Below, piece by piece: positions 1,513-57,213 of a stretch of 57,213 nucleotides of DNA. The position numbers and the translations under genes were made by a program. The notes beneath the pieces were generated by a model. That model saw only the letters and a program-made list of their open reading frames with translations, had not been told where the DNA came from and ran no database searches. Position 1 is the stretch's first letter, and the number at the start of each line of letters is the position of its first letter. Source of the stretch: Bdellovibrionota bacterium. GTDB taxonomy: Bacteria > Bdellovibrionota_C > UBA2361 > JBGSMV01. The stretch lies in NCBI GenBank assembly GCA_044356455.1, contig JBIKWF010000013.1, positions 1 to 57,213 on the forward strand. The letters run 5' to 3'.

Positions 1513-1854
1513 TTAAGCATTCGGAAGAGGCACTGCGCTTGTCTCGCTATGCCTAAGCGTTCGTGTGGTCGTGCGACTAATGCGGAACTTCGCGCCGCAA
1601 TGCGGATCGGGACAGCTTATGTCGCAATCGGTAGTCATCCAATCAGTCGGCTGGAGCGGACGCTGCTTTGCAGGAAGAAGAGGAAGGAGCGCTGCAAGTG
1701 AGTACATCGAGAACCGAGAGACATTCTCAAAAACTAAGTTTTCTCCCTGCACAAGAAAATAACTGCCGGCAACGTGGCTGCACATGAAGGGCTTTTCGCC
1801 TCCAATAACTTCAACTTTGAGGTCGAACAGAAGAAATTCGTCGCTATGGGTCAT
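1513..1854 (-). CDS. TIGR04076-like family protein
   Basis: DLKVEV...CSH..G.YF...GENL...FSMYSLAALLPLLPAKQR...DWM..D..I.CPDP.CG; probable start MTHSDEF at 1854 with AGGA RBS. Confidence 0.75.
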   Translation of the reverse strand: MTHSDEFLLFDLKVEVIGGEKPFMCSHVAGSYFLVQGENLVFENVSRFSMYSLAALLPLLPAKQRPLQPTDWMTTDCDISCPDPHCGAKFRISRTTTRTLRHSETSAVPLPNA

Positions 1855-1971
1855 ATCAGTCCTATTGCTATGGTGGCTACGCCGTGTGCTCGGGAGGGAT
1901 TTCCGCAAGCGAGGCTTTGCCTGAGTTCGATACGTTTATTGGTGAGAAGGTATGAAATGCCCTTGCAGGGC

Positions 1972-1998
1972 AAAAAAAGCTTAGGGCTAGGCCCAGCG
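1972..1998 (-). terminator. Candidate attenuator/terminator hairpin overlapping the end of the leader ORF
   Basis: Minus strand GCTGGGC-CTA-GCCCTAAGC followed by a T7 tract. A second hairpin, TGCCC-TGCAA-GGGCA, follows. Confidence 0.4.
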
Positions 1999-2082
1999 CC
2001 AGAAAGAGAGGGCGCGCGCGGTCCGTGCCGCTCGCACTAGCGCGGCAGAAGCCAGTATTGTGTAAGAAAATAAACTAAGCAT
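1987..2082 (-). CDS. Putative Trp-containing leader peptide (31 aa)
   Basis: MLSLFSYTILASAALVRAARTARALSFWRWA*: two Trp codons next to the stop, located between trpR and the downstream cluster. Confidence 0.5.
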   Translation of the reverse strand: MLSLFSYTILASAALVRAARTARALSFWRWA

Positions 2083-2092
2083 CGCGAAGAAA

Positions 2093-2416
2093 CTATCCTC
2101 TTCTTCTTAAATATATTGAAAGGTCTTTGCCTTTCATTTCCCGCGCGCCGCGGGTCACTGTTGCAATTCCAACTCCCAACGTAGCTGAGATGTCGCGCTG
2201 CGTTTCTCCTTTGTTCAAAAGCTCGAGAATCGCCAAGCGCTGCGTAATCTGATGCAGTTCTTGGGGCGTAAGCAGCACTCGCAAAAACTCCTCAATCGCC
2301 TCGGCGTCAGCAAGGCTACTAAGTAACGCGCTTAGCCTTGTAAGGCTCCAAGACGAATGGTTCGAATTGGAAGCGCTCCTCAAGCGACCGAGTTTTTGGC
2401 GGGAGCGTTTTGCCAT
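2093..2416 (-). CDS. trpR: Trp repressor (TrpR/YerC-YecD family)
   Basis: LLTPQELHQITQRLAILELLNKGETQRDISATLGVGIATVTRG matches the TrpR helix-turn-helix signature. Confidence 0.85.
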   Translation of the reverse strand: MAKRSRQKLGRLRSASNSNHSSWSLTRLSALLSSLADAEAIEEFLRVLLTPQELHQITQRLAILELLNKGETQRDISATLGVGIATVTRGAREMKGKDLSIYLRRRG

Positions 2417-2426
2417 CCTTGGTGCA

Positions 2427-2456
2427 TATGTATCAGTGTACTAGTACGCAAGTCAA
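2427..2456 (-). promoter_or_regulatory. Sigma70-like promoter with TrpR operator upstream of trpR
   Basis: Minus strand TTGACT (-35), then GTACTAGTACACTGATAC (2447-2430), which matches the symmetric TrpR operator GTACTAGTTAACTAGTAC at 14/18 positions. Confidence 0.7.
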
Positions 2457-2813
2457 GCCAAGTTGTCACAAAAAGTTGCTGGTAAGCAGACGGGGGGCTT
2501 CTATAGCTCCGTGCAGTGCTTAAGGGGGGGAGCTACTTGAGCAGAGGAGTAGTCTCGTAACTAAAGCTACTTTTCGCCGCAGGTGCCTGCTCTTAGTGAG
2601 AGAATTAGAAAATAACCCAAGTCGCCTCTATTGCGATGGAACCAAGGCGGACATCTCAGGGAGCAGGGGGAGCTAACATGCTAAAAACATGAAGTAATAA
2701 TTTCTTCTCCCTTGGGGAGGGAAGTGTGTGGGCTCCTGTCGCTGACTGATTGCTTAAAAAGGAAGTTTCGGTATTCTCCAAGCGGTCTGTTTGGTTAATC
2801 CCTCGCAAGGAGA

Positions 2814-5800
2814 GTGCTCATGTTTTCAAGTTTTGTCGCACAAGTGAGAGCTTCCAGCTTGGTGGTCACGGGAATCGTGGCCTCGCTTACTCTATTGGTG
2901 CAATCCGCCTCTTACGCACAACCGACTCCTACGCCTCGCGTTAGGGAGGCTCAGCTTCAAGCAGTTGCCTGCTATCTTGCGGTGGACGGGGACGATGCTA
3001 TCCAATGTCAGTATTGCCCCTCCGGCCAGGCTCCTGCCCAAGTTTTCCCGCGCGGACTTGAGTACGACACCGCAACCACCTTTGTTTGTTTAGATAACTT
3101 AGGTCTCTATAATTCAGAGACAGGTCTTCGAACCGCTTCAAATTACGACGCCACGCTGGGTCGCTGGGTGATTAACGGTAAATACCTCAAGACCAACCTA
3201 CAGAGTAATGCGCCAGTAGTTGGCCGATTTGCTCGCCCCACGAATGATTTCCAAGTTAATCCAAGTGGTACTTCGAGCGCAGATGCGCGTCAGAATACGC
3301 TCTGGAGTTCGGAAGTTCACCTTTACTACTATATTAACGACTTCCGTAAGCGCTTCATAAACGACACCTTTGTTAACTCGCTCTCCCTCCCAGCCCAAGC
3401 GAGCTTAAATCTGAGGAACCGCCAGTTTCGTCCTGACTTGCAGGGGATTGTTAATTCCCGCCTGCCTTGGACCTATCCCAATGAAATCCAAAGTTTGACC
3501 CCCACTCTTTGGTCAACCTCGGTGCCCGCGAACAATTTCTTTTCTCCTTCAAGGCAGCGCCTTAATACGGTCGATCCGCTCGACTCAACAGCATTTGATC
3601 CAGAGTATGTAATTGCCCAATACGCGGGAGCAGCTGCTAATTGGATTACCTCCGGGACTGCTCAGTGGCCAGCTGATCCAACGTGGGGAACGGTTGGCAA
3701 TCTAAGCTGGCGCACGGATGTTCGCCCGGCTGTCCTTGAAGGCTTTAAGCTTTGGAGTGCCTATCGCTACTCTGGGAGAACAGAACTCAATAAGTACGCA
3801 ATGCGCGTCTATCGCCGCTGGCGTGGTTCTATCTGCGGTGGAACTAATCAGCCTGCGTGCAATAAGGGTTGGAACATCGATAATGCGATGATGTATCTCG
3901 ATTCAGCAGATCCTGTGCTGAATAACCCGACCAACGCAAGTTGGCCTGCGAATAACTCGGACGACACCCTCCTTTTCCCCTATGGAACCAATTACGGGAC
4001 AAACCAATATGGAATCCGCAATGCCTTTGGTGGGGTAGAGCACTACGGCCCACATAATGCCGAACTTGGTGGCATGTTCATCGCTGGCCTCTTTTATGAC
4101 ATTTCAAAGGAAGTGGGTCTTGGGGACTACAAGGCTGACCAGCTCTTTTGGAAGACGATTTCGCTTCTTGATCCCTCCGTCGCCATCGACATGACCACGT
4201 TTGCGGTTCGTGTGCAGCAGGCTGCCCGGGCTCTATTCCCCAATACCTCTAACCCGGCGCTTAGCTGGTATGAGCAGGATATTGTTGATGTGTTCGCTTC
4301 TCGTGGCGTGAAGATGAACGGCGTTACGAACTTCCTTGACAACGTTCCCCCTGCTATCGGAATGACCGCAAATCCTGGTCCAGGGTCTCTAATTACCGCG
4401 AGTGCGACTGTTGGTTTTGGGTCTTCAATTCCTGAGACGCAGAGAAATTCTACTACGGGATATAACTTTCTTAGTTTCTTCCAGAATGGTTACCAGGTTA
4501 CCACGCCTGGGACTCAGTATGTGACGTATCAGTTCTATAAGTTCTCGAAGTATGGACCATGCGATCAGCTTGATCTCACCAACGGGACCATAAACGCTCC
4601 GGCAGGCTCATCGAACCCAATCATGAACTATGACGGTTCAATGGCAGCCTCTTACAAGGGGAGGTCGCTCGGAAACACTCTCATCATGGCGCCTGGCCAG
4701 ACCTTGCGTTTCCTCCGTCGCCGTCAATCCTGCGTATCAGAGCAAGATGGCTACTATGCTGAAGACGTGCGTCCTTTCGGGTTTAGGGCACTTAAGGCTA
4801 TCCCGAATGGGTTTACTTTCTCGGTTGCTCGGATAGGGGCCACCTCTGGTCGCTATTCGTATCGCTTAACCGCGGTTGACCCTTCTCTGACTTTGACGGG
4901 ACCAAATACCGGCCCTGCTACCTACAACTGGACCTTTACCGAGTATAATGGCGCGGTAGTGAACGCTACGGGACAGCAAGTGGTATACAACGCGCTTATC
5001 AATCAGCCAGTTACGATTAGCGTAACAAGGGTACGCGGAGCACAAAATGACAATATCACGGTGCGTGAGCGCGGGAATGACCTTGATAGAAACAGCGGCA
5101 AGCAATTCAATCAGGATTACTGGAATCCCGGCTATGCAGTTGGATTTGATACCATTGTGAATCGACGTTTAGTCGAAGGGCACGGTTCGTACAACTCAGC
5201 ACTTAACCCAGTGGGTGGTGCGTTTGGTGTCCAAGGCCGTCGCTGGACGACGCCAAATCAGATAGTGCAGCCGCTGCGCTTTAGCACCGTTTCTCACGGT
5301 CTTGGCTCTGGCAGCAACCAGAATGGGCCTTACCGCTTCCAGGATGCGGTCTATTACAACGCTTGCATCTGGGGGGCGCGTGGCAATGTTACCCAGTTCC
5401 CTGGCTGCCATCAGAATAATGTGGGCGGTGACTATGAGATACAAGTTCCCTTTAGCCAGGTTGGGATAACCGTTGGAAGTCCCTTTGCTACCGTGACTGC
5501 AGGCAGTTACCCCGGGTACTTGTGGACGGTGAATTACCCAACCAATTGGCGTCTTGATGCGAATCGCGAGTACTATTTTGGATCGCATATTTCAGCGAGC
5601 GTCGTGAATAACGGTTACTCGTATAATGTCTGCTCGTATGCGCAGGCGGCCTGGGATGGAGCTGTCGCTGGTAATGCAGCGGATAGGTCCGATTGGCTGG
5701 CTGGCGCAAACTGGAGTGGTTCAGGCGGAGCGCCAGTGCCGCAGACCATGCGTCAATATTTGAGTTCGGCCGGTTCCGTTTCGAACTGCACCTATGCAGC

Positions 5801-36396: not shown

Positions 36397-37989
36397 CTAT
36401 TCCTCAGCCGAGCGTAGGAATACAAAGCGCTCCATGCCTTGACTCTCCACCACAAGGCGTACTCCCTTCTTAAGGTCTGCCTGCTGAATACGCTCGTAGA
36501 AATCGCTCGTCGAAGTAACCTTTTGGCCGTTTACGCTTACCACTACGTCACGAGGCTGAAGCGTCGCGCGTTCTCCTAAGCTCGACGGCTCCACTTGACG
36601 CACGACCACTCCAGTTTTGGTCTTTGTTCCTAGGCGCCTTGCGATGTCAGGTGTGAGCGCTTCTATGGAGATCCCAAGATCAACCGTAGGAGCTTCCTCT
36701 TCTTTGGCTTCTGCTTGCTGCGTTGGAAGCTCCCCAATCTTGACCGAGGCGGTCTCCTTTCGTCCGTTTCTGAGATACTCAAAATTAACCGAGGTGCCAG
36801 GAGCAGTACCTGCGATCTTATTGCGAAGCTGGTTGATATTCTTCACTGGGGTGTCATCCATGCGGATGATGATGTCGCCTTGTTTGAGTCCTGCTTTCCC
36901 GCCCGGCCCGTCTTCTTCAACGTGTCCGACGAGGGCGCCGTCAGTTCCGGCGAAATTAAAGGAGGCTGCGAGGTCCTCGGTGAGATTCTGGATGCCTACT
37001 CCAAGCCAGCCGCGCACCACTTTGCCTTTTGAAATAAGGCTCTCGAGGACGTTTTTCGCCATGCTCGCGGGAATCGCGAATCCAATTCCCATGTACCCGC
37101 CGCTACGAGAGAAAATGGCCGTATTAATGCCAACTACCTCTCCATTTAGATTTACGAGTGGCCCGCCGCTGTTACCCGGATTTATTGCTGCATCGGTTTG
37201 AATGAAATCCTCAAATTGGCCTCCGCCCATAATTGAGCGCCCCTTGGCGCTCACGATGCCGGCGGTGATGGTATTATCGAGGCCAAAGGGATTGCCTGCC
37301 GCGATCACCCATTCGCCAATCTTGAGTTCGTCTGAGTCACCCAGCTTCGCAGCAACAAGTTTGTCGGCTTTGATCTTTATGACAGCTAAGTCCGTTCGAG
37401 GATCTCGTCCAATAAGCTCCGCCTTCACCTCTCTTTCATCACTAAGTCGGACTTTTAGCTCGTCGGCGTCTCCCACGACGTGATTATTGGTAAGTATGTA
37501 GCCGGATTTGTCTACGATTACGCCAGTACCCAGGCCGGAACGGCCACCGTCATCTCCTCCTCCGCCGCCACCGGGGCCACGAAAGGGGCCAAAGCGTTCA
37601 GCAAAGTCATCGCCGAAAAAGTCTTTAAATTGCTCAAAAAACTGATCGCGCTCGTTCTTGCCACGGCGAGCGGGCTGTGGCTTCTTGATGGCGCTGATAT
37701 TAACTACCGAAGGTGTGATTTGCTTTGCTACGGCTTCAAAGGCAGAAGATAGTTCTCGTGCATGCGCAATGCCAGGAGCCGGATCCGTGTTTTCTTGAGA
37801 GTAGCTATACTGGGGGGTCAGTATGGTGAAGCTCGCGAATGCTAAAGCCGAAAATAATTTTGAGCGTGAAAGGAAAGCGCGCCTAGCGGCGTTCAAAGGG
37901 GAAACAGCAAGATTGCGAAGCACCAGATTGCTAACCACCAGATTGCTAACCACCAGATTGCTAACCAATTGAGCAGGCAGAAAAGTCAT
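36397..37989 (-). CDS. HtrA/DegP/DegQ (Do) serine protease with two PDZ domains
   Basis: LTNNHV, DLAVIK, IQTDAAINPGNSGGPL, RGWLGV. Probable start at 37989 with GAGGG RBS. Confidence 0.95.
   Translation of the reverse strand: MTFLPAQLVSNLVVSNLVVSNLVLRNLAVSPLNAARRAFLSRSKLFSALAFASFTILTPQYSYSQENTDPAPGIAHARELSSAFEAVAKQITPSVVNISAIKKPQPARRGKNERDQFFEQFKDFFGDDFAERFGPFRGPGGGGGGDDGGRSGLGTGVIVDKSGYILTNNHVVGDADELKVRLSDEREVKAELIGRDPRTDLAVIKIKADKLVAAKLGDSDELKIGEWVIAAGNPFGLDNTITAGIVSAKGRSIMGGGQFEDFIQTDAAINPGNSGGPLVNLNGEVVGINTAIFSRSGGYMGIGFAIPASMAKNVLESLISKGKVVRGWLGVGIQNLTEDLAASFNFAGTDGALVGHVEEDGPGGKAGLKQGDIIIRMDDTPVKNINQLRNKIAGTAPGTSVNFEYLRNGRKETASVKIGELPTQQAEAKEEEAPTVDLGISIEALTPDIARRLGTKTKTGVVVRQVEPSSLGERATLQPRDVVVSVNGQKVTSTSDFYERIQQADLKKGVRLVVESQGMERFVFLRSAEE
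37921..37965. repeat. 15-bp tandem repeat x3 in the protease leader region
   Basis: CACCAGATTGCTAAC three times (VSNLV units), plus a degenerate adjacent unit. Confidence 0.9.
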
Positions 37990-42241: not shown

Positions 42242-45200
42242 CTAAACAGAAGCGCCCATTTCCCTCATTTGCTCCAAGTAATTTTCACGGGCGACCACCC
42301 GCGGCGGGAAGAAGGGATTATGTATCAGCTTTGGGGCAACCTCACGAAGCCACCAATCTTGAACTTCATCCGGAATCTCCCCGTCAATTCTATCAAATAT
42401 CAGCGGCGGTCCCGATCGTCTCCATACCATGCCAGAGCCAGAGTCGATAACAAAGGGGGTATCAGGCGTTTGGGCGTAGCTGAACCCGTCAGCGAGAACA
42501 AGAATCGGGGCCTCTGATTTTGGAATTCCTTTGGCTCTGTTTTCAAATGCTAGGCGAGAAATTTCTTCCAGCTTGCGCAGAGTTCTGCCCCCAAATAACC
42601 TCTCTCGCTGCTCGCGTTTCTCAGCACTTAGTCCCGTGAGACTTAGGTCTTCAAGAACGAACTCAGGGGTGTACCCCTCCCTGCGCTCTTCATCCTCGCG
42701 TGTCGAAAAGTCGGGCAACTCTAGGGCCCATGGGTCTAGATCTTCTAGCTCGCCAAGAGGCGCACCCGACGCCTCGCTGCGCCTTTGCAGAGAACCCTGC
42801 GGAATAGAGAAGCCGCAGGCGTCAATGCTCTCTGCTGCCTTGTACAGATTCAAAAGATTCTCAAAGTTCATGAAGACCGTATAGAGCTCCTCATGGGCTC
42901 TCAGTAGCTTAGCCAAAATATCTTGCCGGCTAGCGATGTGCCATTTGTGAGAATGCCCGAAGTTATCGAGGTAAATTCGGTGCTGTTTGACCTGTTCCCA
43001 CTCGTGGTGCGGAGAGCTTTTAGGCGCAAATCCATTGCACAGACCTCCACCAATATTAGAGCCAGAGCCGAGATTAATCACACCTACGGCGGTGCCCATT
43101 TCTTTGCAGCGCTTCGCCAAGTTCGCGACTGTAGGTGGGTAGGCACAAAGATTCTCTCCCTGGGGGAGTGTTGAAAAGGTCTCAGGGGAAGGGTCATAGG
43201 GCACCGCAAAGGGATCAATGAAGGTGCGATAGACTCTCGTTGGCACAAGTATCTCGTGTGTGATTCCGCTTGAGTCGTAGTGGTGATTGTACTCAACGCG
43301 TGTCAAATGCTCGCCCGCGTAACTAAATTCTCTTAGGTCTGGAGGGATAATAGCCCTTTGCAACCTCAGAAAAACGAAAGTGGTCTCTGAGGCATAATCG
43401 AGGGGATGAAGAATCCGGCCAGCGCTCGATAAATTATCGACGCCAAATTCTTTAAGGATTCCAGTCTTCCAGCGGTGGAAGGGATTTCGCTGGGCATCCA
43501 ATGGGTCGGTTGCAAATACGCGCTCAGGGAGGAATCCGCGCAGAACTCGTCCTCGGCCTGGAAGCTGGTTAATGTCCGCTGCTGGTAGAATTTGAAGTCG
43601 GTCCTGTCCTGCAATTCGAAGTGCGAACTCATCAAAAGGACAGCGCCGTGAGAGCGGACTATGGCGGAAGGTGTGGGTATGCGCCCAAAAGCCATAATAG
43701 CTATCTATCTGATGCTTGAACACCCGCAAGACCTGTTCATTAAAACGAGCGAGGCGAGGCTGATTCTCTGGGGAAAGAATCGAGAAGGGTGGATTGTCCG
43801 CACCCGCTACGGCATTGGAGGGAAATGCGAGCTCAAGCTGTTCGCGGCGCTTGTCGTCTGAGGTGACGAGCATTTCGGAAATATAAGCATGAGCGGTGAG
43901 CTCAATCACGAACTTTTCTAATTCTTGGAGGCTGCTTATGCGGGATTGTTCAGGAAGCCCGTGTCCTTGAAGTACAAGACAAGCTTTGCGGATATGATCG
44001 GGCCCATCAAATATGATTGTTCTAAGGTTTGCGGGAGGGGCGAGGCGCTCGTCGTCGGATTGTGCCCCGACAATTCTTGCAACCACGTTTCTAAGACGCG
44101 ACGGCCATCCATCAGACTCGCCCTCTTGGAGCATGCGCATGGTAAAGGAGGAAAGCGCGGTAGCAAGTCGGCTCAGAGCCTGTATCTGTTGAGGGTCCTC
44201 TCCCGATTTCTCGAGCAGGGTGCCAAGCAGCGAGGTGATCGTAAAAGGCAAGTAAGAGACAGAGGCGCCAGCGCGTACAAGATTCGCTGCATAAGTCAGC
44301 TTAGTGCCAAGTTCAGATTCACGTTCTGACGCGCAATCTCGGTAAAAGCGACGGAGCGCAATAGGATCATTCGAAAAACTCTTTGCGATGGCGTTTGCGT
44401 CCGGGAGTATAGATGAATCTTTATAGGCGAGTTTCTCGAAAGCAGTGATGGTTCTTAACGCGAGGCGGAGTTCCTCGGGGCGCGAGTAGGTATCAGGGTG
44501 AGTTTCAGCCTGCAGCGAAAGAGTTCTGAGGTAATCAGCAAGCGGGGAGGAGTAGGCGGGGCGAGTCGCGGCGAGTTGGGGCAACTGCCTCTTTTCCGCA
44601 CGTCGAGACAAGGCATACCCAAAAAAGGCAGCGCGTGCCGCTGATTCTGAGCCAATGGGAGGAGTGCCAGACCATGAGCTGGTGGCACGTAAGGCATGGA
44701 GCACTGAGCCCTTAGAGCGTGAAGTGTAGGTCAGAACCTCTAAGAGGGCTCTCCAACTTTTCACGCTTGGAAGCGAAGGACACAGGGTATTCATCGCCTC
44801 GAGTGCCCCTCGCAAGGCCGTAGTTTTTTGATCCCCGGAAATCTTTGAAACAATTCGAGAGATTTGGAGGAACTGCTCTGTGCTGGGGCGAAGGAGAGCA
44901 AAATGTTCGGTCAGCTGAAAAGAGGCTCGTAATCCATAGGGCCTTGAGCCAAAGGCGCCAATCAACGATTCCAAGAGTGCTGCCTCCGCGGGTGCGTTCT
45001 CTCGCTGAGCAGCTCCCTGCGCATATTCAGCCAAGGACTGAGCGGTTTTAGGAAGCTGTTCTTGGTCGCTAAGTTTTGCAAGCAGTGGAGCGTGACGCTC
45101 TATAATCGCACGAGCCTCGAGCGGGAGGAGGCGAGGCGCTCCAAGCTCTTGCGGTTCGGTCAGCTTGACTGGAGGTTGCTTCTGACTTTGTGCGGACTTA

Positions 45201-45268
45201 TCAGACGAGCCGCCGCCTGAGTGCGAGCCATCGGGAGAATCTGGAGAAAGCAGGCGCTGGAACATCAT
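42242..45268 (-). CDS. Large hypothetical protein
   Basis: 1008-aa uninterrupted ORF; no family recognised. Confidence 0.75.
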   Translation of the reverse strand: MMFQRLLSPDSPDGSHSGGGSSDKSAQSQKQPPVKLTEPQELGAPRLLPLEARAIIERHAPLLAKLSDQEQLPKTAQSLAEYAQGAAQRENAPAEAALLESLIGAFGSRPYGLRASFQLTEHFALLRPSTEQFLQISRIVSKISGDQKTTALRGALEAMNTLCPSLPSVKSWRALLEVLTYTSRSKGSVLHALRATSSWSGTPPIGSESAARAAFFGYALSRRAEKRQLPQLAATRPAYSSPLADYLRTLSLQAETHPDTYSRPEELRLALRTITAFEKLAYKDSSILPDANAIAKSFSNDPIALRRFYRDCASERESELGTKLTYAANLVRAGASVSYLPFTITSLLGTLLEKSGEDPQQIQALSRLATALSSFTMRMLQEGESDGWPSRLRNVVARIVGAQSDDERLAPPANLRTIIFDGPDHIRKACLVLQGHGLPEQSRISSLQELEKFVIELTAHAYISEMLVTSDDKRREQLELAFPSNAVAGADNPPFSILSPENQPRLARFNEQVLRVFKHQIDSYYGFWAHTHTFRHSPLSRRCPFDEFALRIAGQDRLQILPAADINQLPGRGRVLRGFLPERVFATDPLDAQRNPFHRWKTGILKEFGVDNLSSAGRILHPLDYASETTFVFLRLQRAIIPPDLREFSYAGEHLTRVEYNHHYDSSGITHEILVPTRVYRTFIDPFAVPYDPSPETFSTLPQGENLCAYPPTVANLAKRCKEMGTAVGVINLGSGSNIGGGLCNGFAPKSSPHHEWEQVKQHRIYLDNFGHSHKWHIASRQDILAKLLRAHEELYTVFMNFENLLNLYKAAESIDACGFSIPQGSLQRRSEASGAPLGELEDLDPWALELPDFSTREDEERREGYTPEFVLEDLSLTGLSAEKREQRERLFGGRTLRKLEEISRLAFENRAKGIPKSEAPILVLADGFSYAQTPDTPFVIDSGSGMVWRRSGPPLIFDRIDGEIPDEVQDWWLREVAPKLIHNPFFPPRVVARENYLEQMREMGASV

Positions 45269-51634: not shown

Positions 51635-51835
51635 ATGAGAAGTTACTTTATGACGAGACTATATTTATAGTGGGCCCTCATCGTACTCTGCTTCAGATGT
51701 CCAGTAAAGCTAGGGCCTTAGGTGGTGGGTGGAGGGGGAAATAAGGCCTCACACCAGGTCTCAGAGACCTTGCGGATTGTGCCTATCGCCGTTGGCCTCT
51801 ACGGTTATGAGACAGCCCAAAGGTTTGGATTGATT

Positions 51836-52237
51836 ATGCGAAATTTGAAATCAGCGGCATGCTACTTTGCACTTGTTTTCGCAGTAGGCTTTGCGCTTGG
51901 CTGTATCAGGGTTCCCTTCCTGGTTCCAAGGCTGGGCCAGAGGGCTGCCGAGCTTCTTGAGGCACCCTTTATGTTTGCGGCGATTATATTTTCGGCACGT
52001 TGGGTCAGTCGAACTTTTCCCGGTTCGACGCGTCAGCTCCTCAACGTGGGCCTCATCGCAGTTGGTTTCTTGTTTTTAGCTGAGCTCACGGTGGATGTGC
52101 TGATTTCCGGGAGGGCAACGTGGGAAGTATTCTTTAACCGCGACCCACTTTCAGGTGCGGTTTACTATGTACTTGTCGCCATCTTCGCTGTCATGCCGGC
52201 CCTTGCGCGTGTTGGTACTCAGAGAAACGTTCACTAA
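51836..52237 (+). CDS. Hypothetical membrane protein
   Basis: Four hydrophobic segments; YFALVF..GF.LG.IRV..LVPRLG.R.AEL.E.P; start MRNLK at 51836. Confidence 0.75.
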   Translation: MRNLKSAACYFALVFAVGFALGCIRVPFLVPRLGQRAAELLEAPFMFAAIIFSARWVSRTFPGSTRQLLNVGLIAVGFLFLAELTVDVLISGRATWEVFFNRDPLSGAVYYVLVAIFAVMPALARVGTQRNVH

Positions 52238-52290
52238 CCAAATGGCATTCATATGCGGATTGTTTTTATTCCACATGTATGGATTAAGAA

Positions 52291-53403
52291 ATGAATAAAT
52301 TCTTCAGAGTATTTTTGTTTTCCTTTTTCCTGCTGTCCTCTCTTCCAGTGGCCTCAAGTGAAGAGCCAAAGAGGGAAGTTTCAGTAGGAGTAGTTCTTCA
52401 TCTGACCGGAGACTTGGCAATGCAATCGGCCGCGTTTCGGGAAGGGCTAGAACTTGCCGTTGAGGAGATCAATAACTCTCGAACCGGCATGGTATTGAAT
52501 CTAAACGTTGAGGATGGTCAGAATAACCCGAAGACTTCAAATAGCGCCGTTCAAAAGCTACTCCATCATGACGACGTCGTTGCAGTAATCCTCTCTTCCT
52601 ACTTGGACGCCATGGCAAGTGGCCCTTTGTTAGAGGCCCGAAAGATTCCGTCACTAGTTCTTTGGGACTCAAGTCCTGAGATAGATGATATTGGCGAATA
52701 TACCTTTGCAATTGGCCCTTGGACACCAAGTGCCGGAGAGGAAGCGGCTCGTTTCTCTACCGAGAAGCTCGGCGCGAAAACCGCCGCTATTGTGGTCAAT
52801 TCTGATTCATGGTCAGAAGCCGTGGGAACTTTTTTCAAGAGGGACTTCGAGAGGCGCGGCGGCAAAGTGCTAGAAGAGGTTGTCCTTGGAGCATCAGAAA
52901 CCGACTTTCGTACTGTCATTTCAAAGATAAAGAGCAAGAAGCCTGACGTTTTGTATAGCCCCTTGGTATTCAATCTGGTCCCCTTTTATTCTCAAGTAAA
53001 GCAGCTACAGCTATCTTCGACTATCGTCAGCTCCGATATCATTGCAGATGAACACATCTCGAAGGCGCCTCAGGCGTTCGAAGGTATCTTCCAGACTGGG
53101 CTCCTGGATCCAAGCTCGGAGGCCTATGGGCGAGTTGCGGCCGCTTACAAAGCGAAATATGGCCGTGAGATTTCCATGCCTTGGTTTGTGGCGGTAGGTT
53201 ATGACGCCGCTTCAATTCTTGCAGAAAGTATAAGCCGGAGCCGCGCAAGCGGCGCGGACATTAAAGATTCTTTGTATTCGCTGCAGGATTATGCGGGCGC
53301 TTCAGCTCGCATTTCCTTCAATAACAAGGGAAGTTCCCCGCAGCTTGAGCATATGTACCAGATCAAGGGCGGAAAATTGGAAATCTTGGGGCGAGACCTT
53401 TAG
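52291..53403 (+). CDS. LivK-like ABC substrate-binding protein (no cognate permease/ATPase adjacent)
   Basis: Signal peptide; VGVVL.LTG; GLELAVEEIN; DF..VI.KIK..KPDV; GYDA. Confidence 0.9.
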   Translation: MNKFFRVFLFSFFLLSSLPVASSEEPKREVSVGVVLHLTGDLAMQSAAFREGLELAVEEINNSRTGMVLNLNVEDGQNNPKTSNSAVQKLLHHDDVVAVILSSYLDAMASGPLLEARKIPSLVLWDSSPEIDDIGEYTFAIGPWTPSAGEEAARFSTEKLGAKTAAIVVNSDSWSEAVGTFFKRDFERRGGKVLEEVVLGASETDFRTVISKIKSKKPDVLYSPLVFNLVPFYSQVKQLQLSSTIVSSDIIADEHISKAPQAFEGIFQTGLLDPSSEAYGRVAAAYKAKYGREISMPWFVAVGYDAASILAESISRSRASGADIKDSLYSLQDYAGASARISFNNKGSSPQLEHMYQIKGGKLEILGRDL

Positions 53404-53582: not shown

Positions 53583-56500
53583 TTAGGCCGCTTTTTTCCA
53601 GTAGGCGATCCATTCGAGGCCAAATTCAAAATTATTCCCAGGAAACGTGAGCAGATTTCTGAGATCTTCGAGATCCTTGATGTGGATCGCACCTTCGACT
53701 TGGTGTGAACTTATGCGCGTTCCGCCGGGTAATAGAAAGACAGGCTTTACCGGATCGAGTGCAGAACCAATGCACTCCTTGATATTCAGATACCTTCCCC
53801 CGAGTTCCTTGAGATCCAGATCCTCGCTGTCGAGCTCCCCAAGTGCGAGCATCACAAGGATGTCCCGATCGAGTTGATTAGAAAAACTGCACGTGTGCCA
53901 CTTAGTTTCTGAGCCGCCTGGCTGAAGCGGAAAACTAAATGTATAGAAAAGCTCTTTCTGATCCGGATTCTCGTCGAAGAACACCCGTGGAGTAATAGCG
54001 TCGCGGTACAGCCTTCCATTGAATTCAGCAAACGCTTCCAGGGGGCTGTAACGGTGAAGCAACCCGCTTGTCAAAACATGTCTGCGCTGCTCCGCGGGGA
54101 CATCAAGAAGCTGCGACATCCCCTCGCGCAGCGCCGCTACCCTAGCTTCTCCGCTGAGTTCCGTCTTGAAGATCTCGCGTTGGATACTAAATAGGTAATC
54201 TCGTACGTGCTCGAGATCTCTGCCCTCTTTCTTCGCAGCGAGGTGATCGATATAGCCAAGTACACCGAGAATTTCCTTATGCAGTAGGGACTGCGCGGCC
54301 AAGTCTTCAAAGAATACCTTTGGTGTTCGGCACTCAACATTCCTTTCGCGCGAAATCACGGTGTACGAAAGGTTAGTTCCCTCAAGGAGCTTGCTGTGTT
54401 TCTGATAGGTAGCCGCAATATTCTCAGCGTGCCCGCCCCATTTTATCTCAAATATTTCGTCTCCCACGCGGTAATCCGCGCGGTCTCCAAAGAATTCTCC
54501 TTTCTCATCTACCGTAAGGCAGTATTGCGGAATAACCTTCTTCTCCGGATAAGCCGCAAGGAGAAATATTCCCACCAACTGCTCAAACGCTTCGCCTTTA
54601 AGAAACGTGCTGAGCGAGGTTTTCTTAAGCTCTACGCCATTCTCAATCGAGTACTCAACAAGCGCCCTTTTACCAGTAAAGGTAGCGCGTCTCTCGCGAT
54701 GAAATTGTTTCGGAAGTACCGGCAAGTCAAGCTTTGTCGCCTCATCGACGTACTCAAGCAGCGCATCTTTCCCGGAAGCATTCTCGGAGAGAAGCATCTT
54801 TATAAATCGCCGCTCTTTTCCAGCACTCAAAGCGCTGATCTCAAGCCAGTATCCCTTCCCTTCTAAGTACTGAACAGAGTGCAACCGGGGGGCGCTTGAT
54901 GGTTGGGGGAGGCCGATACATCGCGTACTCCCAAGCTTTTCCCCATTCGGGAGCGGAAAAGTTTTCTGTGTCTGTCCAGTCGTTCCAATAAGCTCAGGGC
55001 ATGGGAGGCCCCATGGGAATGTTACCTTGCCCCGTAATTTTGCCAGTTTATAGCGCGCAGCTTGCGCAAGCTCTACCTCAGTCAAAGGCGTTAGCTCCCA
55101 TTCTCCCTTTTGATTCTCAGAGATGTTTACCCACGCCCTCTGTTTCGTGCCGTCTTTGTTGGCAGCAGAGAAACACAGCCAATATCCTTCGCCCTCTTTG
55201 TACCGAATGGAGTGCAACCGAGGGTCGCTTGAAGGCGCAGGGAGGCCGATTCCTCGCTGACTCCCGAGCTTTCCCCCATTCGGGAGCGGGAAACTTACCT
55301 GTGTCCTTCCGTTCGTTCCAATAAGCTCAGGGCATGGGAGGCCCTGTGGGAATCTTGCCTCGCCAGTATCTTTTGCAAGTTTGTAGCTGCGAGCCAGCTC
55401 TTCTGCGAATAATTGCGAAGAAGTTTTTAACTCCCATTCTCCAGGGCTCGTCTCGCAAAGCAGTACTTCTACCTCGCTCCTTGCGCCCTTTTTGTCAGCC
55501 GCAGACAAACACAGCCAATACCCTTCGCCCTCTTGGTACCGAATGGAGTGCAGACGGGGGTCGCTTGATAGATTGGCAAAACCGATACCTAGCTGACTCC
55601 CGAGCTTTCCCCCATTCGGGAACGGAAAAGTTGTCTGTGTCTGTCCAGTCGTTCCAATAAGCTCAGGGCATGGGAGACCCTGTGGGAATCTTGCCTCGCC
55701 AACGTCCTTTGCAAGGCTGTAGTTGTGAGCCATCTCTTCAGCGAACAATTGCGAAGAGGTTTTTAACTCCCACTTTCCAGGGCTCGTCTCGCAAAGAAGT
55801 ACCTCTACCTCGCTCCTTGCCCCTTTACTGTCAGCCGCAGAGAGACACAGCCAATATCCTTCGCCCTCTTTGTGCCGAATGGAGTGCAACCGAGGGTCGC
55901 TTGCTGAACGAGGGAGGCCGATTCCTCGCTGACTCCCGAGCTTTTCCCCATTCGGGAGCGGAATAGTTGTCTGTGTCGTTCCGACCGTTCCAATAAGCTC
56001 AGGGCATGGGAGGCCCTGTGGGAATGTTACCATGCCACGTAATTTTGCGAGTTTATAGCGCGCAGCTTGGGCAAGCTCTACCTGAGTAAATGGCGTTAGC
56101 TCCCATTCTCCCTTTTGATTCTCAGAGATGTTTACCCACGCCCTCACCTTCGTGCCGTCTTTGTTGGCAGCAGAGAAACACAGCCAATATCCTTCGCCCT
56201 CTTTGTACCGAATGGAGTGCAACCGAGGGTCGCTTGATGGAAAGGGGAGGCCGATACCCCGATTATCCGCGTGCTTTTCCCCATTCGGGAGCGGAAAAGT
56301 TTTCTGTGTCGTTCCGTCCGTTCCAATAAGCTCAGGGCATGGGAGGCCCTGTGAGAATGTTGCCTTGCCCCGTAATTTTGCCAGTTTGTAGCGCGCAGCT
56401 TGGGCAAGCTCTACCTGAGTAAAAGGCGTTAGCTCCCATTCTCCCTTTTGATTCTCAGAGATGTTTACCCACGCCCTCTGTTTCGTGCCGTCTTTGTTGG

Positions 56501-57213
56501 CAGCAGAGAAACACAGCCAATATCCTTCGCCCTCTTTGTACCGAATGGAGTGCAACCGAGGGTCGCTTGAAGGCGCAGGGAGGCCTATACTTCGCGAACT
56601 CCCGAGCTTTTCCCCATTCGGGAAGGGAAAATTATTCTGTGTCGCTCCGTTCTTTCCAATAAGCTCAAGGCATGGGAGGCCATCCCGGAACTTTATCTCG
56701 CCAGCGTCTTTTGCAAGTTTGTAGCTGCGAGCCAGCTCTTCAGCGAATAATTGCGAAGAAGTTTTTAACTCCCATTTTCCAGGGCTCGTCTCGCAAAGTA
56801 GTACTTCTACCTCGCTCCTTGCGCCCTTTTTGTCAGCCGCAGAGAAGCACAGCCAATATCCTTCGCCCTCTTTGAAACGAATGGAGTACAGACGGGGGTC
56901 GCTTGATGGTTGGGGGAGGCCAATACCTCGATTATCCCCGTGCTTTTCCCCATTCGGGAGCGGAAAATTTATCTGTGTCCCTCCCTTCGTTCCAATTAGC
57001 TCAGGGCATGGGAGGCCCTGTGGGAATGTTACCTTGCCCCGTAATTTTGCGAGTTTATAGCGCGCAGCTTGGGCAAGCTCTACCTGAGTAAAAGGCGATA
57101 GCTCCCATACTCCCTTTTGATTCTCAGAGATGTTTACCCACGCCCTCTGTTTCGTGCCGTCTTTGTTGGCAGCAGAGAAACACAGCCAATATCCTTCGCC
57201 CTCTTTGTACCGA
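53583..57213 (-). CDS. Large tandem-repeat protein with C-terminal PD-(D/E)xK nuclease-like domain (5'-partial)
   Basis: The frame stays open from the window end to the stop at 53583 (checked by hand beyond 56555). It contains 111/112-aa repeats, then KGEAFEQLV...IPQY...RADY...FEIKWG. Confidence 0.85.
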   Translation of the reverse strand, partial: RYKEGEGYWLCFSAANKDGTKQRAWVNISENQKGVWELSPFTQVELAQAARYKLAKLRGKVTFPQGLPCPELIGTKGGTQINFPLPNGEKHGDNRGIGLPQPSSDPRLYSIRFKEGEGYWLCFSAADKKGARSEVEVLLCETSPGKWELKTSSQLFAEELARSYKLAKDAGEIKFRDGLPCLELIGKNGATQNNFPFPNGEKLGSSRSIGLPAPSSDPRLHSIRYKEGEGYWLCFSAANKDGTKQRAWVNISENQKGEWELTPFTQVELAQAARYKLAKLRGKATFSQGLPCPELIGTDGTTQKTFPLPNGEKHADNRGIGLPFPSSDPRLHSIRYKEGEGYWLCFSAANKDGTKVRAWVNISENQKGEWELTPFTQVELAQAARYKLAKLRGMVTFPQGLPCPELIGTVGTTQTTIPLPNGEKLGSQRGIGLPRSASDPRLHSIRHKEGEGYWLCLSAADSKGARSEVEVLLCETSPGKWELKTSSQLFAEEMAHNYSLAKDVGEARFPQGLPCPELIGTTGQTQTTFPFPNGGKLGSQLGIGFANLSSDPRLHSIRYQEGEGYWLCLSAADKKGARSEVEVLLCETSPGEWELKTSSQLFAEELARSYKLAKDTGEARFPQGLPCPELIGTNGRTQVSFPLPNGGKLGSQRGIGLPAPSSDPRLHSIRYKEGEGYWLCFSAANKDGTKQRAWVNISENQKGEWELTPLTEVELAQAARYKLAKLRGKVTFPWGLPCPELIGTTGQTQKTFPLPNGEKLGSTRCIGLPQPSSAPRLHSVQYLEGKGYWLEISALSAGKERRFIKMLLSENASGKDALLEYVDEATKLDLPVLPKQFHRERRATFTGKRALVEYSIENGVELKKTSLSTFLKGEAFEQLVGIFLLAAYPEKKVIPQYCLTVDEKGEFFGDRADYRVGDEIFEIKWGGHAENIAATYQKHSKLLEGTNLSYTVISRERNVECRTPKVFFEDLAAQSLLHKEILGVLGYIDHLAAKKEGRDLEHVRDYLFSIQREIFKTELSGEARVAALREGMSQLLDVPAEQRRHVLTSGLLHRYSPLEAFAEFNGRLYRDAITPRVFFDENPDQKELFYTFSFPLQPGGSETKWHTCSFSNQLDRDILVMLALGELDSEDLDLKELGGRYLNIKECIGSALDPVKPVFLLPGGTRISSHQVEGAIHIKDLEDLRNLLTFPGNNFEFGLEWIAYWKKAA
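54800..57213 (-). repeat. Intragenic 333/336-bp tandem repeat array
   Basis: Anchor CATGGGAG (LPC codons) at 55000, 55333, 55669, 56005, 56338, 56671, 57007; spacings 333, 336, 336, 333, 333, 336. Confidence 0.95.

What the first reader, a model, noticed from the sequence alone, without database searches (positions are those of the whole stretch)
54895..56995. Hypervariable residues confined to three short patches in each repeat (RVD-like code)
Seen, N to C. Patch 1: TKGGTQIN, KNGATQNN, TDGTTQKT, TVGTTQTT, TTGQTQTT, TNGRTQVS, TTGQTQKT. Patch 2: HGDNRG, LGSSRS, HADNRG, LGSQRG, LGSQLG, LGSQRG, LGSTRC. Patch 3: PQP, PAP, PFP, PRS, ANL, PAP, PQP. The rest of each unit is largely conserved, even at the DNA level. 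The variable residues are mostly polar base-contacting types (N, Q, T, R, K, D, S) flanking a PNG turn. Inference: a beta-hairpin recognition surface under diversifying selection.
Basis: partly seen in the sequence, partly recalled or inferred. Interest (0 to 1): 0.75.

Follow-up and report, generated by a model that had tools for sequence, protein, structure and literature searches.

The report
Nuclease with rewritable repeat array
This lake bacterium carries an undescribed DNA-cutting enzyme whose long arm of 112-amino-acid repeats keeps being rewritten at the same few positions, much like the targeting arms of engineered genome-editing nucleases, although DNA binding and cutting have not been measured.

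Summary
The three variable patches are real, but the second half of each unit comes in two types, so it is not simply conserved. The 111/112-aa repeats (at least 8) precede a PD-(D/E)XK nuclease with an intact E…D…E-x-K motif.

The same positions vary inside 15 homologous arrays. With positions chosen from the other arrays, the window gives dN(patch)/dS 3.3 against 0.33 elsewhere (permutation P=2e-4). Twelve near-identical alleles carry 2–6 repeats with 34 different codes in 42 repeats. AlphaFold places all variable sites in one basic loop lobe of a fold with no PDB match above Z 4.7; the PNG turn itself is invariant.

The same nuclease carries three unrelated repeat arrays in other bacteria and archaea, and this repeat is also fused to SNF2 helicases. 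The gene is solitary, patchy (8 of 124 genomes) and mobile, with no DNA methyltransferase found beside it.

Best reading: a natural TALEN/zinc-finger-like nuclease retargeted by repeat shuffling and point mutation in conflict with foreign DNA. It is not a TALE, and a multi-residue code is likelier than an RVD. Binding and cutting are untested. The scan noted viral repeat-array nucleases before, but not this family.

The parts
53583..57212 (-). Repeat-array nuclease ORF, 1209 aa in the window, open at its 5' end. The start (about 60 non-repeat residues plus the first repeat lobe) lies at the end of contig C112 (G000:C112:53608-53984, +).
   Evidence: join supported by gene order in a congener; the number of repeats in the gap is not fixed because the 57-bp overlap occurs 4 times in the array
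57018..57212 (-). Partial repeat (second half, type A) at the contig end
56682..57017 (-). Repeat R1 (112 aa, type B second half); variable lobe 56904-57002: TKGGTQIN / HGDNRG / PQP
56349..56681 (-). Repeat R2 (111 aa, type A); lobe 56568-56666: KNGATQNN / LGSSRS / PAP
56016..56348 (-). Repeat R3 (111 aa, type A); lobe 56235-56333: TDGTTQKT / HADNRG / PFP
55680..56015 (-). Repeat R4 (112 aa, type B); lobe 55902-56000: TVGTTQTT / LGSQRG / PRS
55344..55679 (-). Repeat R5 (112 aa, type B); lobe 55566-55664: TTGQTQTT / LGSQLG / ANL
55011..55343 (-). Repeat R6 (111 aa, type A); lobe 55230-55328: TNGRTQVS / LGSQRG / PAP
54756..55010 (-). Terminal repeat R7, divergent in its second half; lobe 54897-54995: TTGQTQKT / LGSTRC / PQP
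54642..54755 (-). Basic, low-confidence linker between array and nuclease
   Evidence: pLDDT under 50 at model residues 242-268
54279..54641 (-). PD-(D/E)XK nuclease core; putative catalytic E877 (54582-54584), D913 (54474-54476), E922 (54447-54449), K924 (54441-54443)
   Evidence: all four invariant in 22 of 22 rows of A5 (13 rows come from one lineage); fold matches to restriction-type nucleases, Z 4.5-7.3; coordinates
53586..54278 (-). Helical bundle and conserved alpha/beta tail of unknown role, carried by relatives of this nuclease type whichever repeat they bear

Best explanation
A solitary, mobile, sequence-targeting DNA nuclease. Each 112-aa repeat folds as a helix plus a 5-stranded sheet (scaffold) with an inserted basic loop lobe. 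The 5-8 variable lobe residues read a few bases each, tandem repeats read consecutive sub-sites, and the C-terminal PD-(D/E)XK domain cuts nearby. Specificity is rewritten by gain, loss and shuffling of repeats and by positively selected substitutions at the lobe positions. The most likely role is conflict with foreign DNA entering the cell (phage or mobile DNA), with self protected by a long, rare site rather than by methylation. Shown: architecture, fold model, motif conservation, fixed-position diversification, shuffling, mobility. Inferred: DNA binding by the lobe, modular read-out, cutting, and the target. The molecular core (repeats read DNA and aim the enzyme) is shared with the first two rivals and I put it at about 0.75.
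For: Nuclease fold and invariant E/D/ExK. Same variable columns in 15 arrays (window vs others Spearman 0.45, p=0.0015). dN(patch)/dS 3.3 in the window and 1.5-4.0 in four more arrays. Patch pN/pS 1.1-6.8 in 7 arrays against 0.4-2.2 (median 1.16) for variable control positions outside the lobe. Lobe net charge +1.85, negative in 6% of 267 repeats, rest of the unit -0.64; variable columns 36, 38, 39, 54 are 0-5% acidic. The enzymes recognised in fusion with the repeat act on DNA: two nuclease-type tails and SNF2 helicases. The nuclease also carries three unrelated repeat arrays with patchy variation. Same-locus alleles differ in repeat number and code. No DNA methyltransferase identified among 33 neighbours.
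Against: No binding or cleavage data. Two- or three-repeat alleles would read short sites that should occur in the host genome. 14 of 60 repeat-bearing proteins have an altered catalytic motif (D…PN…HxK), 18 have no or a short tail (many are fragments), and three giants have no recognised enzyme. No PADLOC model matches the protein, and neighbours are mostly housekeeping genes, not defence islands. In three arrays (L024-L026) the patch ratio is only 1.1-1.5 and the interval for L026 includes 1. Pairwise dN/dS between gene-converting repeats is not an independent-sample test.
Confidence: 0.45

Rival explanations
1. Same DNA-reading mechanism, but the gene is a selfish free-standing homing endonuclease that cuts alleles lacking it and is retargeted as its sites erode.
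For: Solitary, patchy (8 of 124 genomes), with different neighbours in five genomes of one genus; flanking genes adjacent without it in a congener; tandem or dispersed paralogues (L048; G015); no methyltransferase found.
Against: Arrays change number and code while the gene stays at one locus (L023 vs L052, 95.7% identical over 6.9 kb), whereas homing needs a fixed target. No intron or intein seen. No relative in the viral contig scan (pattern-limited) or PHROGs. At G000 and G057 it lies with other inserted genes.
Confidence: 0.15
2. Same DNA-reading mechanism, but the protein is exported into prey or host cells, a TALE-like effector that cuts or binds host DNA.
For: All five genomes tested carry three FlhA/SctV-type export genes (this includes G001, which lacks the repeat gene). 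Short Ser/Pro/Thr-rich N-terminal extensions. One giant repeat-bearing protein starts with a signal-peptide-like stretch (P0064, judged by eye). Several labelled carrier lineages are predatory or host-dependent (recalled).
Against: No secretion signal was tested. Archaeal-labelled carriers of the same nuclease are not expected to have type III secretion (recalled). The IcmK search rang nowhere and is uninformative.
Confidence: 0.15
3. The repeats are a diversifying sensor for proteins or other non-DNA ligands (for example phage proteins), and binding switches on a non-specific nuclease that kills the infected cell.
For: Fold neighbours of the nuclease include ligand-activated defence nucleases (Card1, Can2, NucC, tied in Z with restriction enzymes). 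Variable positions accept hydrophobic and aromatic residues. It would explain the lack of a methyltransferase and the short arrays.
Against: The lobe is consistently basic and its variable positions avoid D/E; the repeat is also fused to SNF2 helicases; one of the alternative arrays has weak HTH-like matches.
Confidence: 0.2
4. The patches are merely tolerant surface loops drifting between gene-conversion tracts.
For: Turn and loop positions are often variable; other exposed columns also vary, at pN/pS near 1.
Against: Patch pN exceeds local pS in 7 of 7 arrays, 2.4-6.8-fold in four; codon positions 1-2 differ more than position 3 in the window's patches, the reverse of the rest; up to 12 residues occur at one column among 42 repeats whose flanks are invariant.
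Confidence: 0.05

Closest known systems
TALE and TALE-like proteins (RipTAL, Bat/BurrH, MOrTL, STAR) and engineered TALENs (PMC5472282 abstract; PMC11417379 abstract and passages)
   Same: Near-identical tandem repeats that differ at fixed positions; variable repeat number; array followed by a PD-(D/E)XK cutter as in the engineered FokI fusion.
   Different: 112-aa alpha/beta unit instead of a 34-aa unit; 5-8 variable positions instead of two; no Pfam match; the nuclease fusion is natural.
C2H2 zinc-finger arrays, PRDM9 (PMC5120217, passages: mean dN/dS 2.7 between repeats, selection at DNA-contacting positions)
   Same: Homogenised array, positive selection at a few fixed positions per module, rapid allele turnover; probably several bases per module.
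   Different: No zinc-ligand pattern, unrelated fold, prokaryotic, carries its own nuclease.
Type IIS restriction enzymes and nickases (FokI 2fok, BspD6I 2ewf/2p14) and Mrr-like or NucS PD-(D/E)XK nucleases (1y88, 2vld)
   Same: Separate recognition part and C-terminal PD-(D/E)XK core (Z 4.7-7.3).
   Different: Recognition part is a repeat array; no cognate methyltransferase found; no sequence match.
Free-standing homing endonucleases with repeated DNA-binding modules (GIY-YIG, HNH, EDxHD/Vsr types; recalled, and earlier scan notes)
   Same: Solitary mobile nuclease with a modular arm of variable length.
   Different: Different nuclease family and module; found on cellular chromosomes, not in the viral scan; array changes at a fixed locus.
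Ligand-activated defence nucleases (Card1 6wxw, Can2 7bdv, NucC 6p7p)
   Same: PD-(D/E)XK effector behind a separate N-terminal module.
   Different: No CARF/SAVED domain, no CRISPR or CBASS neighbours seen.

Membership tests
PD-(D/E)XK nuclease superfamily | alpha-beta-beta-beta-alpha-beta core | tested here: met
   Model residues 266-356 show this order at pLDDT 67-96 per block; more than 20 of the top 50 VIA rows are restriction-type nucleases aligned to residues ~260-380, best Z 7.3, rmsd 4.4, 142 aligned. Z values are middling.
PD-(D/E)XK nuclease superfamily | Catalytic E…D…(D/E)-x-K residues | tested here: met
   E877, D913, E922, K924 invariant in 22 of 22 rows. Motif definition recalled.
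PD-(D/E)XK nuclease superfamily | Metal-dependent cleavage of nucleic acid | not testable with these tools
   Needs a biochemical assay.
TALE / TALE-like | About 34-aa repeats | tested here: not met
   111/112-aa units with one helix and five strands.
TALE / TALE-like | Two adjacent variable residues per repeat | tested here: not met
   Variable columns 33/34, 36, 39, 51/52, 54, 59 of the profile.
TALE / TALE-like | Match to the TAL effector repeat profile | tested here: not met
   No such hit among Pfam families up to E=1.
C2H2 zinc-finger array (PRDM9-like) | Conserved Cys2His2 ligands, ~28-aa unit | tested here: not met
   No conserved Cys/His set in the 267-repeat alignment.
C2H2 zinc-finger array (PRDM9-like) | Positive selection at fixed positions between repeats (works-like feature) | tested here: met
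Type II restriction-modification system | Linked cognate DNA methyltransferase | tested here: not met
   33 neighbouring ORFs scanned with PADLOC. The only methyltransferase-like hit (L001:2726-4114, about 5.5 kb upstream, mad2 E=8e-22 over 120 aa) matches protein, RNA and small-molecule methyltransferases in NCBIfam. Nearest large neighbours were scanned, not every ORF, and some contigs end at the gene.
Homing endonuclease | Mobile gene with empty alleles in relatives | tested here: met
Homing endonuclease | Cuts the empty allele of its own locus | not testable with these tools
   Target unknown; array turnover at a fixed locus argues against.
Diversity-generating retroelement target | Reverse transcriptase and template repeat; adenine-specific changes | tested here: not met
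   No RVT_1 match in G000 (93% complete; control rang in 3 of 14); no extra copy of the repeat; variable codons are not AAY-derived.
Known DNA-binding fold for the repeat | Structural match to a solved domain | tested here: inconclusive
   Best Z 4.7 against 48,161 chains for a three-repeat model; a single repeat was not folded and searched alone.

The most novel reading that the evidence does not exclude
A natural family of protein-programmed nucleases in bacteria and archaea: one cutter accepts at least four unrelated plug-in repeat arrays, each repeat reads a short DNA sub-site by a decodable multi-residue code, and cells retarget the enzyme by shuffling repeats, a protein-only counterpart of adaptive targeting.
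Probability: 0.35. Interest if true: 0.93.

Novelty: new variant of a known kind. Interest (0 to 1): 0.8.

Why it matters
Few natural modular DNA-reading scaffolds are known (zinc fingers and TALE-likes are the main ones). Two published screens focused on units of 15-35 aa (the 'TRs of interest' set of PMC11417379) and 30-43 aa (PMC5472282), so a 112-aa unit lies outside those sets. If the lobe reads bases, this is a new programmable scaffold that comes with its own nuclease and with hundreds of natural code variants for decoding. It would also show how a prokaryote can retarget a nuclease without guide RNA or methylation. The claim is directly testable with two- to four-repeat alleles.

Tried and rejected
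Pfam, PHROGs, NCBIfam and PADLOC gave no credible family for repeat or nuclease; the Rcc01698_C, S4e and similar hits are summed short repeats with 0-1 passing stretches. PDB sequence searches gave nothing useful. Foldseek on the three-repeat model gave only beta-propeller-type matches with TM under 0.2 in PDB and BFVD; VIA gave Z 4.7 at best, with Pur-alpha at 3.5-3.7 too weak to use. These absences do not prove a new fold. Foldseek on the second model gave no match at E<=0.001. The ESM Atlas gave no hit for the repeats and only unnamed clusters at 0.90 plus PD-(D/E)XK leads at 0.86 for the tail. A homodimer prediction of the C-terminal part returned no verdict. A diversity-generating retroelement was rejected. 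The pattern scan of genome contigs with the window repeats found nothing; the viral scan found 0 relatives among 41 pattern matches. The IcmK search was uninformative. A shared N-terminal export motif was not supported: 4 loose matches in 3186 ORFs. Four of the 48 representatives (P0048, P0063, P0065, P0066) were dropped as false hits because the iterated profile did not recover them. One run (X3) covered almost none of the array. Earlier-finding look-ups by sequence found nothing. Literature searches showed no description of this family in their listings; the library lacks most subscription papers, and supplements were not read (the repeat-protein tables of PMC11417379 could list members).
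Full report
Observation. The finding lies in a minus-strand ORF, 53583-57212, open at the contig end. It holds a partial repeat, six full 111/112-aa repeats, a divergent terminal repeat and about 390 further residues. The gene start and one more lobe lie at the end of contig C112. In a genome of the same genus, the FliI/SctN-type ATPase gene abuts ileS; in this genome their homologues lie on C112 and C97, about 16.4 kb apart if the contigs join. This supports the join and places the gene in a variable region. The gap may hide repeats, since the 57-bp overlap occurs four times, and one independent run holds a unit combination not present in the window (X4 record 28).

The family. A profile of the window repeats matched 48 cluster representatives; 4 were dropped as false. 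An iterated profile over 72 stored sequences found 267 well-covered repeats in 65 of them, up to 19 matches per protein; this set is redundant, with many alleles of one lineage. Arrays are homogenised: each of 63 repeats from 11 arrays has its nearest neighbour in its own array (identity 0.56 within, 0.25 between). The gene occurs in 8 of 124 genomes of the phylum, this one included. Two genomes of the same order correspond to records titled Bdellovibrionota; two others carry Proteobacteria or Pseudomonadota labels, so the label is approximate. Five genomes of one genus carry it beside different neighbours, and one congener has the flanking genes adjacent. No family library names it.

Selection. 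In 15 arrays, mostly one per lineage, the same profile columns vary inside the array: 33/34, 36, 39, 51/52, 54 and 59. To avoid circularity I chose 8 columns from the other 14 arrays and tested them on the window DNA: pN 0.47 against 0.07, dN(patch)/dS(rest) 3.27, dN/dS of the rest 0.33, permutation P=2e-4, bootstrap pN/pS 2.42 (1.31-4.13). Two of the 8 columns are almost constant in the window. Four other arrays gave 2.00, 2.09, 1.51 and 4.01; the interval for the third includes 1. With the columns fixed, 7 of 7 arrays with DNA gave patch pN/local pS of 1.13-6.75, while 8 hand-picked variable columns outside the lobe gave 0.40-2.22. These 7 come from 5 lineages, several helped define the columns in that call, terminal repeats were left out of arrays with more than three, and repeats under gene conversion are not independent, so the numbers are indicative. 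Twelve proteins of one lineage, 85-100% identical in the nuclease part and treated as alleles by inference, carry 2-6 repeats with 34 different codes among 42 repeats; identical modules recur in different orders and patch 1 recombines with patch 2. Two copies at the same locus (95.7% identical over 6.9 kb) have 3 and 4 repeats with different codes. This resembles PRDM9, for which PMC5120217 reports mean dN/dS 2.7 between repeats (passages).

Structure. AlphaFold2 on three repeats (32 rows) gave pLDDT 90.8 and pTM 0.63: a helix, a strand, a ~35-residue lobe with isolated beta-bridges, then four strands that lead into the next helix. All variable columns map to the lobe: the turn and second strand of the IG-xx-G-x hairpin, the following loop, the returning strand and the loop after IGLP. 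The P-x-P-N-G hairpin is invariant. The lobe is basic (mean +1.85; positive in 77%, negative in 6% of 267 repeats). I could not measure exposure. No solved fold matched above Z 4.7. The C-terminal part models as a PD-(D/E)XK core, a helical bundle and a poorly predicted tail; its fold neighbours are restriction enzymes, nickases, NucS, XisH-like and CARF-linked nucleases at Z 4.5-7.3, and E, D, E-x-K are invariant in 22 of 22 rows.

Modularity. Of 60 stored proteins with a well-covered repeat, 22 end in this nuclease, 14 in a homologous tail with an altered motif (D…PN…HxK; a 15th by eye), 18 have no or a short tail, 2 carry SNF2 helicases and 3 are giants with no recognised enzyme. Calling those giants Omnitrophota-like is my recollection from their look; no call gave their taxonomy, and the passages I saw of the giant-gene preprint (10.1101/2023.11.21.568195) do not mention such repeats. 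Conversely, the same nuclease sits behind three unrelated arrays: a ~79-aa helical repeat (records titled Gammaproteobacteria and Melainabacteria), a ~77-aa repeat (Woesearchaeota, Altiarchaeota, Methanosarcinales, Patescibacteria titles) and a ~87-aa repeat, each with patchy variation seen by eye but not tested for selection. In a tree of 41 nuclease domains the ~77-aa type and the ~79/87-aa types form supported clades, while relations among the 112-aa carriers are open.

How it most likely works. A cutter that accepts interchangeable repeat arms, and a repeat whose recognised enzyme partners act on DNA, point to arms that bind DNA. A basic lobe diversified at fixed positions under positive selection points to base read-out, probably several bases per unit as in zinc fingers rather than one as in TALEs. 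Turnover of the array at a fixed locus, without a methyltransferase, points to a moving foreign target. I put DNA read-out at about 0.75, split into defence 0.45, homing 0.15 and exported effector 0.15; a non-DNA sensor at 0.20; drift at 0.05. Against the main reading: nothing has been measured, short arrays pose a self-cutting problem, many relatives have an altered active site, and the neighbourhoods are not defence islands.

Comparison and novelty. It fails the membership tests for TALEs, zinc fingers, Type II restriction-modification and diversity-generating retroelements, and passes those for the PD-(D/E)XK superfamily. It works like an engineered TALEN or zinc-finger nuclease and evolves like PRDM9. 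PMC11417379 (abstract, outline, sections 50 and 52, passages) classified its repeats of interest by periods of 15-35 aa, and PMC5472282 (abstract and outline) screened 30-43 aa; PMC4787788 (passages) did not contain the words endonuclease or nuclease domain. Seven literature searches listed no description of this family (listings only; supplements unread). Earlier scan notes describe viral nucleases with other repeat arms but no look-alike of this one. Verdict: a real, undescribed family; new variant of a known kind, with a fair chance of being a new programmable class; interest 0.8.

Noticed in passing
L031:6675-9038, L034:1-1689, L048:1-1503 and 1796-3757; L033, L036, L037, L038, L049, L050, P0067; P0070, P0071: Three further undescribed repeat types (~79, ~77 and ~87 aa) fused to the same nuclease, each with patchy variation; L048 holds two tandem paralogues. 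Each deserves its own study.
   Followed up: partly
P0009, P0020, P0021, P0024, L024-L026 and others: A second clade keeps the repeats but has a conserved altered active site (D…PN…HxKWG): possibly a nickase, an inactive binder or different chemistry.
   Followed up: partly
P0043, P0050, P0057, P0061, P0064: Giant proteins (2300-4550 aa) with 6-19 copies of the repeat; two carry SNF2 helicases, one begins with a signal-peptide-like stretch, and P0061 has a further unrecognised repeat behind the array.
   Followed up: partly
G000 genome-wide: 25 Flagellin_N matches in this genome and 24 in its congener, many in 430-660-aa frames; also three FlhA/SctV-type genes.
   Followed up: no
L002:2220-5360 (G000:C95, minus strand): A 1046-aa orphan with a distantly related PD-(D/E)XK-like motif (E=1.8e-5 to the nuclease profile) and no repeats.
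   Followed up: partly
L076 near 7780 (G105; same record as L029): The relative's reading frame is interrupted near a homopolymer run inside the array; pseudogene, phase variation or assembly error not decided.
   Followed up: no
window 42242-45268 (-): 1008-aa orphan starting MMFQRLLSPDSPDGS; a similar start occurs in P0058 and one other ORF of the genome.
   Followed up: partly
window 37910-37967: 15-bp tandem repeat, 3.9 copies.
   Followed up: no
window 51722-53403 and L001: The ~16-kb stretch between the FliI/SctN ATPase gene and ileS holds unrelated genes (periplasmic binding protein, methyltransferase, flavin-related and membrane proteins) absent at this place in the congener.
   Followed up: partly
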